Shown here: piece after piece, positions 9,001-12,000 of the stretch | Position numbering within the stretch: the first letter of the stretch is position 1 | Layout: every line of letters starts with the position of its first letter | Source of the DNA: Escherichia coli | Lineage (GTDB): Bacteria; Pseudomonadota; Gammaproteobacteria; Enterobacterales; Enterobacteriaceae | Length of the DNA stretch: 64,000 bases | NCBI RefSeq assembly: GCF_030384885.1 | Contig: NZ_CP128613.1 | Strand: one strand, 5' to 3' | Program-made: the position numbers

Positions 9001-12000
9001 GGCTTTATTCTCAATAGTGGGCGCTCACTTGTCATTGTAGTGAACAAGTGGGACGGCCTGAGCCAGGAAGTGAAAGAGCAAGTAAAAGAGACGCTGGACT
9101 TCCGTCTGGGCTTTATCGACTTTGCTCGCGTGCATTTTATTTCTGCATTACACGGCAGCGGCGTTGGTAACCTGTTTGAGTCAGTACGTGAAGCGTATGA
9201 CAGTTCCACTCGTCGTGTGGGGACATCTATGTTGACGCGTATCATGACCATGGCGGTTGAAGATCACCAGCCGCCACTGGTTCGCGGGCGTCGTGTGAAG
9301 CTGAAATATGCCCACGCCGGTGGTTACAATCCGCCGATTGTGGTGATTCACGGCAACCAGGTGAAAGACCTGCCTGATTCGTACAAACGCTACTTGATGA
9401 ATTACTTCCGCAAGTCTCTGGACGTGATGGGTACGCCGATTCGTATTCAGTTCAAAGAAGGGGAAAACCCATATGCGAACAAGCGTAACACCCTGACGCC
9501 GACCCAGATGCGCAAGCGTAAGCGTTTGATGAAGCATATTAAGAAAAGTAAGTAATCACTTATCTGGTTTCCCTTTCCAAACGGAGAGGGAAACTGAACA
9601 ACAGGCGAGGAGTATTTATGGAACTCAACTGCCCAACCTGCCATAACCCTCTCGAACGCAACGGTGAAACTGCCCACTGTGCAACTTGTGCCAAAGATTT
9701 CACCATTCAGGCGCTTTGTCCTGACTGCCATCAGCCATTACAGGTGTTAAAAGCTTGTGGTGCTGTAGATTATTTCTGCCAGCATGGGCACGGTTTAATA
9801 TCTAAAAAACGCGTTGAATTTATTGTTGCTTAATATTATTTAAATATATGATGTAATCATTTGTATTCATAATATAAATGATTTCATCCTATTTTATTTG
9901 TTGAAGCGCAAATACAAGTGAATGAAATCACTGTGTTATAAATTTAAGATTATATTTAGTTTTCCTGGCGTGCCTTTCTGAACAATCTGGAATAGAATAT
10001 TAAAGCTTATTTTAAGCATTATTAATGTCACAGGGGATGTGCATGCTGCGATGGAAACGCTGTATTATGCTAACATTTATCTCTGGAGCTGCTTTTGCGG
10101 CTCCAGAGATAAATGTTGAGCATAAAGAATCGTTACCTGATTTAGGTAGTCAGGCCGCACAACAGGAAGAACAAACTAACAAGGGTAAATCGCTAAAAGA
10201 GCGTGGTGCCGATTACGTCATTAACTCTGCCACGCAAGGGTTTGAAAACCTGACACCCGAGGCGCTGGAGTCCCAGGCCAGAAGCTATCTGCAAAGTCAA
10301 ATTACCTCTACGACACAATCTTATATTGAGGATACACTCTCCCCCTACGGTAAGGTCCGAACGAATCTTTCTCTTGGTCAGGGCGGCGATCTGGATGGCA
10401 GTTCCATCGACTATTTTGTTCCCTGGTATGATAATCAAACTACTGTTTATTTCAGCCAATTTTCTGCACAACGAAAAGAAGATCGTACGATCGGGAATAT
10501 TGGGCTTGGTGTAAGACATAATTTTGATAAATGGTTATTGGGTGGAAATATATTTTATGATTATGATTTTACCCGTGGACATCGCCGTTTAGGTTTAGGC
10601 GCCGAAGCCTGGACTGATTATTTAAAATTCTCGGGCAACTATTACCATCCGCTATCCAGCTGGAAAGATTCCGAAGATTTCGATTTTTATGAGGAGCGCC
10701 CGGCGCGCGGCTGGGATATTCGCGCCGAAGCCTGGCTACCTGCTTACCCGCAGCTTGGCGGTAAAATCGTTTTCGAACAGTATTACGGTGATGAAGTCGC
10801 GCTTTTTGGCACCGATAATCTGGAGAAAGATTCCTTCGCCGTCACGCTGGGTGTGAAATACCAGCCCGTACCACTCATTGCCGTAGGAACGGATTTCAAA
10901 GCCGGCACTGGCGATAATACCGATCTTTCTGTTAACGCAACGCTGAACTACCAGTTTGGTGTCCCGCTCAAAGACCAGCTTGATCCTGACAAAGTGAGCG
11001 CGGCCCACTCGCTCATGGGCAGCCGTCACGACTTTGTTGAACGTAACAACTTTATTGTTCTGGAATACAAAGAGAAAGATCTCCTCGATGTCACTTTGTG
11101 GCTGAAAGCCGATGCGACGAATGAACATCCCGAGTGCGTGATTAAAGATACGCCAGAAGCAGCCATCGGGCTGGAAAAATGTAAGTGGACCATTAACGCG
11201 CTCATTAATCATCACTACAAAATCGTTGCTGCCTCCTGGCAGGCGAAAAACAATGCTGCACGTACGCTGGTGATGCCGGTTATCAAAGAAAATACGCTTA
11301 CTGAAGGTAACAACAATCACTGGAATCTGGTGCTGCCTGCCTGGCAGTACAGCTCTGATAAAGCCGACCAGGAAAAACTCAATACCTGGCGGGTACGGCT
11401 GGCGCTGGAAGATGAAAAAGGCAATCGGCAGAACTCCGGCGTGGTGGAAATCACCGTTCAGCAGGATCGTAAAATTGAGCTCATCGTTAACAACATCGCC
11501 AATGTACCGGATGAGAACAATCACAGCCACGAAGCCAGCGCGCAAGCGGATGGTGTAGATGGTGTCGTCATGGATCTCGACATTACCGATAGCTTTGGCG
11601 ACAACACTGACCGTAACGGTAATGTCTTGCCGCAGGATAATCTCAGCCCGCAGCTGTTTGATGCCAACGATAAAAAAGTGACGCTGGCGAATAAACCCTG
11701 CACCACCGAGGTGCCGTGCGTTTTTATCGCCAAACAAGATAAAGAAAAGGGGACCGTTACGCTCTCCAGTACGTTGCCCGGCACTTTCCGCTGGAAGGCG
11801 AAAGCCGCCCCTTATGATGACAGTAACTATGTTGACGTAACGTTCCTGGGTTCTGACATCGGCGGGCTGAATGCTTTTATCTACCGCGTTGGTGCAGCTA
11901 AGCCCGTCAATCTTATCGGCAACAAAGAACCGTTGCCTCTCAATAGCCGCTATCGCTTTGTGCTGTGGCGCGACGCTAACAAAGACGGCGTGTTCCAGCT

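What the first reader, a model, noticed from the sequence alone, without database searches (positions are those of the whole stretch)
9834..10042. Strongly AT-rich, curved-looking leader in front of the adhesin gene
About 190 bp of A/T-rich DNA with phased A/T tracts (taatattatttaaatatatgatgtaatcatttgtattcataatataaatgatttcatcctattttatttg ...) lies upstream of the horizontally variable adhesin gene. This is the typical architecture of H-NS-silenced promoters of acquired surface factors, so the gene may be cryptic under laboratory conditions and respond to an anti-silencing regulator.
Basis: inference. Interest (0 to 1): 0.35.

Follow-up and report, generated by a model that had tools for sequence, protein, structure and literature searches.

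The report
AT-rich sinH adhesin promoter region
This 209-bp stretch is the very A/T-rich control region in front of the sinH adhesin gene, at the edge of a gene island that only some E. coli carry; it looks like an ordinary "silenced until needed" promoter, not a curved-DNA element, and its silence and response to the regulator LeuO are already published for a related strain.

Summary
Window 9834-10042 is exactly the yfgJ-sinH intergenic region. It is 73.7% A+T, and only 0.5% of 209-bp windows here are as AT-rich. It is also the leftmost 209 bp of a variable island found in about 1,700 of 5,426 complete E. coli genomes. It is not curved and its A/T tracts are not phased: two wedge models put it below the window average and below its own shuffles.

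Comparing 22 leaders from five genera shows that AT-richness is kept (GC 0.24-0.30) while the sequence drifts, except for a few islands. These are:
- a -10 hexamer TAGAAT (9993-9998), with no conserved -35;
- a 17-bp element (9943-9959), 33 nt upstream of the -10;
- a hairpin-forming dyad just after yfgJ (9850-9888);
- the ribosome-binding site.

H-NS silencing is plausible but untested. Published work on E. coli SMS-3-5 (iatB = sinH) found the promoter silent in the laboratory and induced about 15-fold by the H-NS antagonist LeuO, but no hns mutant was recovered.

In this window the gene is a deletion chimera. A covarying RNA hairpin lies in the sinH signal-peptide codons (10069-10121). Overall this is ordinary: a new member of a known kind.

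The parts
9834..10042 (+). yfgJ-sinH intergenic region. This is the left end of the sinH island and the sinH regulatory region (73.7% A+T).
9850..9888 (+). Hairpin-forming dyad 17-55 nt after the yfgJ stop, followed by the U-rich CUAUUUUAUUUG (9889-9900). It is a candidate 3' hairpin, weak terminator or insulator of the der-yfgJ transcript. It contains a LeuO-core-like 19-mer GTATTCATAATATAAATGA (9863-9881), which matches ATATTCA-N5-TGAATAT at 10 of 14 positions.
   Evidence: RNA fold gives -14.4 kcal/mol, z = -4.4. Equivalent hairpins with different arm sequences occur in EcN, Citrobacter and Pseudocitrobacter (z -2.9 to -7.7). The palindrome profile peaks at -171 from the ATG (7.74/10 against 6.31 +/- 0.47). 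The LeuO-core score is the top aligned position (9.9-10.2/14 against 6.7 +/- 0.8). A score of 10/14 alone is at chance level.
9918..9931 (.). CRP-like GTGA-N6-TCAC, centred about -80.5 from the predicted start. TCAC is conserved in the Escherichia clade only. This is a weak lead.
   Evidence: read from the sequence and alignment A3; part of the imperfect palindrome 9879-9900/9909-9930
9943..9959 (+). Most conserved element of the leader: TTTAAGATTATATTTAG (consensus TTTARGAATWYATTTAG), centred about -54. It is a candidate activator operator. Its left half equals an RcsB/NarL-type half-site, TARGAAT.
   Evidence: Near-invariant in 20 of 22 leaders, including Salmonella. Spacing to the -10 is a fixed 33 nt, or 22 nt (one helical turn less) in two lineages. 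It is unique in the window.
9970..9975 (+). Position of a -35 hexamer (GTGCCT, 3/6); not conserved.
9993..9998 (+). Predicted sigma-70 -10 hexamer TAGAAT. The implied transcription start is about 10004-10006, giving a 5' UTR of about 38 nt.
   Evidence: T9993, A9994, A9996 and T9998 are invariant or nearly invariant across genera. It is the best plus-strand PWM promoter of the region (9.7 bits, above the 99.9th percentile of the window). Salmonella has TATAAT at the same spacing.
10032..10045 (+). Shine-Dalgarno AGGGGA (10032-10037) and the sinH start codon ATG (10043-10045).
10069..10121 (+). Very stable RNA hairpin of 24 pairs inside the sinH signal-peptide codons. It is conserved with compensatory changes in the Escherichia clade and is a candidate post-transcriptional control element.
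   Evidence: Inverted repeat 10072-10092/10097-10117. Fold of 10005-10140 gives -59.3 kcal/mol, z = -7.4. 96% of cells are paired, 5 pairs changed on both sides, and 0-1 of 500 shuffles reach the observed values.
10043..12493 (+). The gene driven by this region. Here it is a deletion chimera: SinH residues 1-708, then an out-of-frame sinI fragment, then a fragment of the large adhesion-domain gene.

Best explanation
The region is the promoter and regulatory region of sinH (also called iatB), an intimin-like inverse autotransporter adhesin. It forms the left edge of the sinH-sinI-adhesin island inserted between yfgJ and xseA.

Shown here:
- It is strongly AT- and TpA-rich but not curved.
- Its core promoter has a conserved -10 hexamer (TAGAAT, 9993-9998) and no conserved -35, so it should be weak on its own.
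- A 17-bp element sits one fixed distance upstream of the -10, at about -62 to -46.
- A hairpin-forming dyad sits just behind yfgJ.

Inferred:
- In standard culture the promoter is kept off. The causes would be the poor -35, the absence of its activator and, most likely, an H-NS (and StpA) filament on the AT-rich DNA from about 9700 to 10100, which may extend into the AT-poorer 5' part of sinH.
- LeuO, and possibly a second factor binding the 17-bp element, relieves this in the host.
- The hairpin behind yfgJ would insulate sinH from read-through out of the constitutive der-yfgJ operon.

In this particular genome the promoter looks intact, but the gene behind it is a deletion chimera and sinI is destroyed.
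For: - Position and island edge.
- AT and TpA richness against the window.
- AT-richness is kept (GC 0.235-0.30 in 17 of 19 loci, against 0.45-0.55 in the CDS) across Escherichia, Pseudocitrobacter, Citrobacter and Superficieibacter, and in the Salmonella leader, while mean column identity is only 52-55%. Within E. coli the leader is 68-75% identical where the adjacent CDS is 95-97%.
- The conserved -10 coincides with the best PWM promoter.
- The 17-bp element keeps its 33-nt (or 22-nt) spacing.
- Published data on the SMS-3-5 allele: the promoter is silent, all 12 up-mutants are leuO-activating insertions, LeuO gives about 15-fold more transcript, and no protein is seen in the wild type (PMC6714894).
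- 78% of E. coli LeuO targets are also H-NS targets (PMC6698644).
- Another E. coli intimin-like gene, fdeC, is reported as H-NS- and temperature-regulated. I saw only the title of Easton et al. 2014, in the reference list of PMC6714894.
- sinH is reported as up-regulated during human UTI (PMC9937491 citing Shea 2022), which fits conditional expression.
Against: - I found no H-NS ChIP, EMSA or hns-mutant data for sinH in E. coli or Salmonella.
- The Tn5 screen of about 30,000 mutants yielded no hns insertion, and deleting leuO changed nothing.
- There is no H-NS nucleation motif within 2 mismatches in 9834-10042.
- There is no intrinsic curvature.
- The simple consensus scan found no promoter, and the transcription start is predicted, not measured.
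- The experimentally studied allele is only 74.8% identical to this leader, and its 17-bp element is partly degenerate.
- A missing activator alone could explain the silence.
Confidence: 0.6

Rival explanations
1. The promoter is simply activator-dependent and H-NS plays no part. It would be off because it lacks a -35 element and needs a specific factor bound at the conserved 17-bp element (and/or LeuO acting as a classical activator). On this view the AT-richness reflects an easily melted promoter, UP-element-like DNA and packed AT-rich operator sites.
For: - No conserved -35; the strongest conservation in the whole leader is a discrete 17-bp element at a fixed, helically phased distance from the -10.
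- No hns insertions came out of the published screen.
- No H-NS motif and no curvature.
Against: - The composition is conserved over about 200 bp even where the sequence is unalignable. A few operator sites do not explain that.
- LeuO mostly acts at H-NS-repressed loci.
- The density of promoter-like hexamers on both strands is typical of DNA that needs silencing.
Confidence: 0.25
2. This is the reader's architectural version: an intrinsically curved leader with phased A/T tracts serves as the H-NS nucleation site.
For: Only the visual impression of A/T runs. A real curvature peak does exist, but at 9795-9810 inside yfgJ.
Against: - Curvature is below the window average and below the region's own shuffles in two models.
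- There are only four short tracts, and they show no 10-11 bp periodicity.
Confidence: 0.05
3. Much of the 'leader' belongs to the upstream operon. On this view the first 60-70 bp are the 3' hairpin or terminator of der-yfgJ, and sinH is transcribed largely by read-through that is limited by this hairpin or by Rho. There would be no dedicated silenced promoter.
For: - A hairpin 17-55 nt after the yfgJ stop is conserved by position, with different arm sequences in different genera (z -2.9 to -7.7).
- In this window a U-rich tail follows it.
- No canonical terminator was found between yfgJ and sinH.
Against: - The stem is AU-rich with few G-C pairs, and the U-tract is absent in some genera.
- This does not explain the conserved -10, the 17-bp element, or the lacZ and qRT-PCR behaviour in SMS-3-5.
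- It is compatible with the best explanation as an insulator rather than being a replacement for it.
Confidence: 0.1

Closest known systems
iatB (= sinH) promoter of E. coli SMS-3-5, activated by LeuO (Goh et al. 2019, PMC6714894)
   Same: It is the orthologous locus, with the same der-yfgJ-sinH context and the same leader length. The -10 region, SD and start codon are shared.
   Different: It is a different allele: the leader is only 74.8% identical. The 17-bp element is better preserved in this window than in SMS-3-5. Here the downstream gene is a deletion chimera. H-NS was not examined in that study.
H-NS-silenced, LeuO-antagonised promoters such as Pcas and leuO of E. coli K-12 (PMC6698644)
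   Same: AT-rich upstream DNA, silence in standard culture and activation by overproduced LeuO.
   Different: Those promoters carry a high-affinity palindromic LeuO core site: ATATTCATACTGTGAATAT at cas and ATATTGATTTGGTGAATAT at leuO, both recovered. This window has only a 10/14 match, which is chance level by itself. A 14/14 match sits at the equivalent position in one Citrobacter. H-NS binding is shown for those promoters and not for this one.
inv (invasin) of Yersinia, silenced by H-NS and counter-silenced by RovA; fdeC of EHEC, regulated by H-NS and temperature
   Same: These genes belong to the same protein family (inverse autotransporter adhesins), and conditional expression from an AT-rich promoter is the expected logic. 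This rests on my background knowledge. For fdeC I saw only the paper's title, cited in PMC6714894.
   Different: There is no sequence similarity between the promoters and no RovA/SlyA palindrome here. Regulation of sinH by temperature or by H-NS has not been shown.
RcsB-family operators: RcsB box TN(G/A)GAN4TC(T/C)NA, RcsAB box TaAGaa|tatTCctA, BglJ-RcsB core wwTTCykA (PMC7913699, PMC3950696)
   Same: The left half of the 17-bp element (TTARGAAT) matches the RcsB half-site and the reverse complement of the BglJ-RcsB core. Its position next to or upstream of the -35 region is typical of activators.
   Different: The right half is ATTTA instead of TC(T/C)NA, so it is not a homodimeric RcsB box or an RcsAB box. 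The orientation is inverted relative to most BglJ-RcsB sites. No bglJ-activating insertions were reported in the iatB screen.

Membership tests
H-NS (xenogeneic) silenced promoter | DNA much more AT-rich than the genome over 100-200 bp or more | tested here: met
   73.7% A+T against 48.3% for the window; lowest 0.5% of 209-bp windows
H-NS (xenogeneic) silenced promoter | Belongs to horizontally acquired or variable DNA | tested here: met
   The island is present in about 1,700 of 5,426 genomes. Homology in sinH-less genomes stops at the yfgJ stop codon.
H-NS (xenogeneic) silenced promoter | High-affinity nucleation motif resembling TCGATAAATT | tested here: not met
   No match within 2 mismatches inside 9834-10042; the nearest is at 9817-9826 on the minus strand.
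H-NS (xenogeneic) silenced promoter | H-NS occupancy in vivo or in vitro, and derepression in hns mutants | not testable with these tools
   No such data found in the held literature.
H-NS (xenogeneic) silenced promoter | Silent in standard laboratory culture | not testable with these tools
   Published for the SMS-3-5 allele only (PMC6714894).
LeuO regulon promoter | Transcript rises when LeuO is produced | not testable with these tools
   Published: about 15-fold for the SMS-3-5 allele. That allele's leader is 74.8% identical to this one.
LeuO regulon promoter | LeuO core site ATATTCA-N5-TGAATAT (7-5-7 palindrome containing T-N11-A) | tested here: inconclusive
   The window has 10/14 at 9863-9881, and 49% of shuffles reach 10 or more. 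The site is nevertheless the best aligned position across 22 leaders (z about 4), with 14/14 in Citrobacter MGH106 and 12/14 in four lineages. T9866 is nearly invariant and A9878 invariant (the T-N11-A pair). The same spot is also a hairpin with lineage-specific arms.
Sigma-70 promoter | -10 hexamer TAnnnT at a conserved position | tested here: met
   TAGAAT at 9993-9998
Sigma-70 promoter | -35 hexamer resembling TTGACA, 16-18 bp upstream | tested here: not met
   GTGCCT (3/6), not conserved.
Sigma-70 promoter | Mapped transcription start | not testable with these tools
   Predicted at about 10004-10006 only.
RcsB box (homodimer) or RcsAB box | TN(G/A)GA-N4-TC(T/C)NA pseudo-palindrome | tested here: not met
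   The left half TARGA is present; the right half is ATTTA.
Intrinsic terminator (for the 9850-9888 hairpin) | G+C-rich stem-loop followed directly by a U-tract | tested here: inconclusive
   A stable hairpin (z = -4.4) with a U-rich tail in the window, but the stem is AU-rich and the tail is absent in some genera. The scan found no terminator.

The most novel reading that the evidence does not exclude
sinH would be guarded by three stacked, conserved gates rather than by plain H-NS silencing. The first gate is an insulating hairpin behind yfgJ. The second is a promoter that needs a still-unidentified, genus-spanning activator bound to the 17-bp element TTTARGAATWYATTTAG, perhaps an RcsB-containing heterodimer acting together with LeuO. 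The third, in Escherichia, is a covarying 24-bp RNA hairpin in the signal-peptide codons that limits translation or mRNA stability. That hairpin could explain why LeuO-induced mRNA gave no detectable protein in the published study.
Probability: 0.2. Interest if true: 0.5.

Novelty: new member of a known kind. Interest (0 to 1): 0.27.

Why it matters
SinH is a fitness factor and a vaccine antigen of extraintestinal pathogenic E. coli (PMC9937491), yet it cannot be detected in culture. Knowing where its promoter is, which short elements are conserved across genera, and that an RNA hairpin sits in its first codons gives concrete handles for finding the in-host signal and for expressing the antigen. 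As an example of silencing of acquired DNA it adds nothing conceptually new. For this particular genome the question is partly moot, because the gene behind the promoter is a deletion chimera.

Tried and rejected
- Curvature and phasing: rejected.
- The simple consensus scan found no promoter or terminator in 9500-10300. A PWM plus phylogenetic footprinting was needed.
- H-NS motif TCGATAAATT: not in the region and not clearly enriched in the window (74 matches against 59 +/- 8).
- Rfam: nothing near any gathering score. Small ORFs in the leader are only mechanical.
- The sigma-54 site reported for Salmonella sinH (STM2517) is intragenic and unrelated to the leader.
- Metagenome scan for the 17-bp element, to look for a regulon: 120 hits, median GC 0.33, none next to a SinH homologue, so these are chance matches in AT-rich genomes.
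- Identity of the 17-bp element: a homodimeric RcsB box and an RcsAB box are rejected because only one half-site fits. I also compared it by eye with consensus sequences recalled from memory for PmrA, PhoP, CpxR, Lrp, Fis, IHF, SlyA, EvgA, the GAD box and sigma-E; none fits in both sequence and spacing.
- RNAalifold on the dyad region predicted no consensus structure. The palindrome had to be shown per lineage.
- Literature on H-NS occupancy at sinH in E. coli or Salmonella: none found. Lucchini 2006, Shea 2022 and Easton 2014 are not held.
- LeuO site sequences were not in the paper's text or supplements. I recovered them from the K-12 cas and leuO regions.
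Full report
WHAT IS THERE

The window carries der (to 9555) and a yfgJ-type double zinc-ribbon gene (9618-9833). A 209-bp gap follows (9834-10042). Next comes an inverse-autotransporter gene with IAT_beta and InvE_AD domains (10043-12493), then a 157-aa InvE_AD remnant (12496-12969), then xseA on the other strand. RefSeq annotation of a strain identical over this stretch (2013C-4282) names the gene sinH and starts it at the ATG that corresponds to window 10043. That ATG and the AGGGGA in front of it are conserved in all relatives. The upstream in-frame ATG at 10025 is not. The '190 bp' corresponds to the non-conserved ATG.

THE OBSERVATION

The gap is 73.7% A+T in a window whose mean GC is 0.517 (sd 0.053 for 209-bp windows). 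Only 0.5% of such windows are as AT-rich, and only three other places in the 64 kb compare. It is also very rich in TpA steps (12.4 per 100 bp against 4.3) and in -10-like TAnnnT hexamers on both strands (23 against a mean of 4.2).

The 'phased A/T tracts' and 'curved-looking' part does not hold.
- There are only four tracts of four or more A/T, irregularly spaced.
- AA/TT periodicity at 10-11.5 bp is no stronger than in shuffles (p = 0.37).
- Two dinucleotide wedge models give curvature below the window average and below most dinucleotide shuffles of the region itself.
- The code gave 28 degrees per turn for phased A6 tracts and 2 for unphased ones, so it works.
- The DNA is AT-rich of the flexible, TpA-rich kind, not the bent kind.
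- A genuine curvature peak lies just upstream, at 9795-9810 inside yfgJ.

CONTEXT

About 1,700 of 5,426 complete E. coli genomes have sinH here. In the others yfgJ and xseA overlap convergently by 4 bp, and similarity to this window ends at the yfgJ stop codon. The AT-rich gap is therefore the leftmost 209 bp of the island and travels with sinH.

In the intact relative the island is 11.7 kb: sinH, sinI and an 8.1-kb adhesion-domain gene. In this window three deletions with 2-3 nt of microhomology at the junctions reduce it to 3.2 kb. They fuse SinH residues 1-708 to an out-of-frame sinI fragment and an adhesin fragment. No complete genome in the collection has this exact structure.

COMPARATIVE ANATOMY

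I collected leaders from eight E. coli alleles and from E. albertii, E. whittamii, two unnamed Escherichia species, Pseudocitrobacter, Citrobacter, Superficieibacter and Salmonella.

The 200 nt upstream of sinH have GC 0.235-0.30 in 17 of 19 loci, against 0.45-0.55 in the coding sequence. Primary sequence is poorly conserved, with 52-55% mean column identity across genera. Within E. coli the leader is only 68-75% identical to this window's where the adjacent coding sequence is 95-97%. Composition and length are therefore maintained while sequence drifts. This is the best computational argument that AT-richness itself is functional.

Against an AT-rich background, only a few islands of conservation stand out.
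1. The -10 hexamer, TAGAAT at 9993-9998. T, A, A and T at hexamer positions 1, 2, 4 and 6 are invariant or nearly so. Salmonella has TATAAT. An independent PWM scan ranks it as the best plus-strand promoter of the region and above the 99.9th percentile of the window. The -35 position (GTGCCT) is poor and not conserved. The implied transcription start is near 10005.
2. A 17-bp element, TTTAAGATTATATTTAG at 9943-9959 (consensus TTTARGAATWYATTTAG). It is the most conserved stretch of all. It lies 33 nt upstream of the -10 in nearly all lineages, including Salmonella, and 22 nt (one helical turn less) in two lineages.
3. The ribosome-binding site.
4. A dyad about 172 nt upstream of the ATG (9850-9888).

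THE DYAD

Using the published description of the LeuO core site as a 7-5-7 palindrome at cas and leuO (PMC6698644), I recovered ATATTCATACTGTGAATAT and ATATTGATTTGGTGAATAT from K-12.
- Scored against ATATTCA-N5-TGAATAT, the aligned position 9863-9881 is the single best column of the leader alignment (mean 9.9-10.2 of 14, against 6.7 +/- 0.8).
- One Citrobacter has a 14/14 match and four lineages have 12/14.
- The window's own 10/14 is at chance level: 49% of shuffles reach 10 or more.
- The same spot forms a hairpin in every lineage tested, with different arm sequences. The values are: window -14.4 kcal/mol, z = -4.4; Citrobacter -26.3, z = -7.7; Pseudocitrobacter -20.6, z = -7.1.
- It lies 17-55 nt after the yfgJ stop. 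In the window a U-rich run follows it.

I therefore read it primarily as a 3' hairpin or weak terminator that insulates sinH from the der-yfgJ operon. A LeuO site is a possible second role. The data do not separate the two.

THE 17-BP ELEMENT

Its left half, TTARGAAT, equals the RcsB half-site and the reverse complement of the conserved BglJ-RcsB core wwTTCykA (PMC3950696). Its right half does not fit the RcsB box TN(G/A)GAN4TC(T/C)NA (PMC7913699). It is therefore not an RcsB homodimer or RcsAB box. An RcsB-plus-partner site or another response regulator remains a guess.

A metagenome scan for the pattern returned only chance matches in low-GC organisms, so it gave no regulon information.

HOW IT MOST LIKELY WORKS

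Published experiments on the orthologous promoter of E. coli SMS-3-5 (iatB) are the only functional data.
- The chromosomal lacZ fusion is silent.
- No protein is detected under any culture condition tried.
- All 12 up-mutants among about 30,000 Tn5 insertions drive leuO.
- LeuO overproduction raises the transcript about 15-fold, still without detectable protein.
- Deletion of leuO has no effect (PMC6714894).
- The SMS-3-5 leader is identical to my L003 allele.

LeuO is an H-NS antagonist at most of its targets. Combined with the conserved AT-rich composition and the weak core promoter, the best reading is a promoter kept off by H-NS/StpA and by the lack of its activator(s), and opened in the host.

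Which steps are shown and which inferred:
- Shown by sequence and comparison: the location, the composition and the conserved elements.
- Shown by others, for another allele: the silence and the LeuO response.
- Inferred: H-NS binding itself, the transcription start, and the roles of the 17-bp element and the dyad.

The main counter-evidence is the absence of hns hits in the screen, the absence of a nucleation motif and the absence of curvature.

SIDE FINDING

Codons 9-27 of sinH (10069-10121) form a 24-pair RNA hairpin. The fold of 10005-10140 is -59.3 kcal/mol, z = -7.4. It is conserved in all Escherichia-clade alleles, with five pairs changed on both sides. 96% of cells are paired, and 0-1 of 500 shuffles reach the observed covariation measures. 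It is not evident in the other genera. It may act after transcription and could relate to the mRNA-without-protein result. That link is speculation.

VERDICT

The AT-rich leader is real and is correctly placed. The curvature claim is wrong. The 'silenced, anti-silencer-responsive' interpretation is reasonable and largely anticipated by the literature, but H-NS has not been demonstrated. This is an ordinary example of a known kind of regulation, with some new fine anatomy.

Noticed in passing
window 9834-13024 (junctions at about 12165-12167, 12289-12291 and 12491-12492): The sinH island here is a three-deletion derivative (356 bp, 3.4 kb and 4.8 kb lost, with 2-3 nt of microhomology) of the 11.7-kb sinH-sinI-adhesin island of strain 2013C-4282. 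It gives a SinH(1-708) chimera and a 157-aa C-terminal remnant. No complete E. coli genome in the collection has this exact structure, so it could be real decay or assembly collapse. Related strains carry other deletions annotated as pseudogenes.
   Followed up: partly
window 10069-10121: A 24-pair RNA hairpin sits inside the sinH signal-peptide codons (z = -7.4). It is conserved with compensatory changes in all Escherichia-clade alleles and is absent in Citrobacter, Salmonella and Pseudocitrobacter.
   Followed up: yes
window 9850-9900: A hairpin-forming dyad lies directly after yfgJ. It is conserved by position across genera, with lineage-specific arms, and a U-rich tail follows it here. It overlaps a LeuO-core-like 19-mer.
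   Followed up: yes
window 9795-9810: The only strong predicted curvature peak near the locus (about 13-15 degrees per turn, about the 99th percentile) lies in the 3' end of yfgJ (TCTAAAAAACGCGTTGAATTTATTG), not in the leader. The nearest H-NS-motif-like match (ACAATAAATT, 9817-9826, minus strand) is next to it.
   Followed up: partly
window 9618-9833: In sinH-less E. coli, only the 3' part of yfgJ (9711-9834) aligns to this window, at about 84% identity. Between sinH-carrying lineages yfgJ is also divergent. The exchanged segment therefore seems to extend into yfgJ, beyond the island proper.
   Followed up: no
window 18727-19135, 19322-19678, 57287-57706: These are the three other spots as AT-rich as the sinH leader (minimum GC 0.215-0.244). 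By offset from the annotated relative, the first two fall in the yfgH-yfgG and yfgG-pdeF intergenic regions.
   Followed up: no
L012 (MAG labelled Collinsella sp.) and L031 (Rhizobium wenxiniae contig, 426 bp): Public assemblies of unrelated organisms contain contigs encoding SinH that is 92-99% identical to the E. coli protein. This is most likely contamination or mis-binning.
   Followed up: no
L033 1156-1280 (Salmonella enterica): The Salmonella yfgJ-sinH gap is 345 bp. An extra G+C-rich segment of about 125 bp with REP-like dyads precedes the AT-rich part, which keeps the 17-bp element, the 33-nt spacing and a perfect TATAAT.
   Followed up: partly
hit H76, E. coli SC516 (NZ_CP025048.1): An IS1 element interrupts the yfgJ-sinH leader or the sinH 5' region in this chicken isolate.
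   Followed up: no
window 9918-9931: A CRP-like GTGA-N6-TCAC is centred about -80.5 from the predicted start. It lies inside an imperfect 22-nt inverted repeat (9879-9900/9909-9930). Only the TCAC half is conserved, and only within Escherichia.
   Followed up: partly
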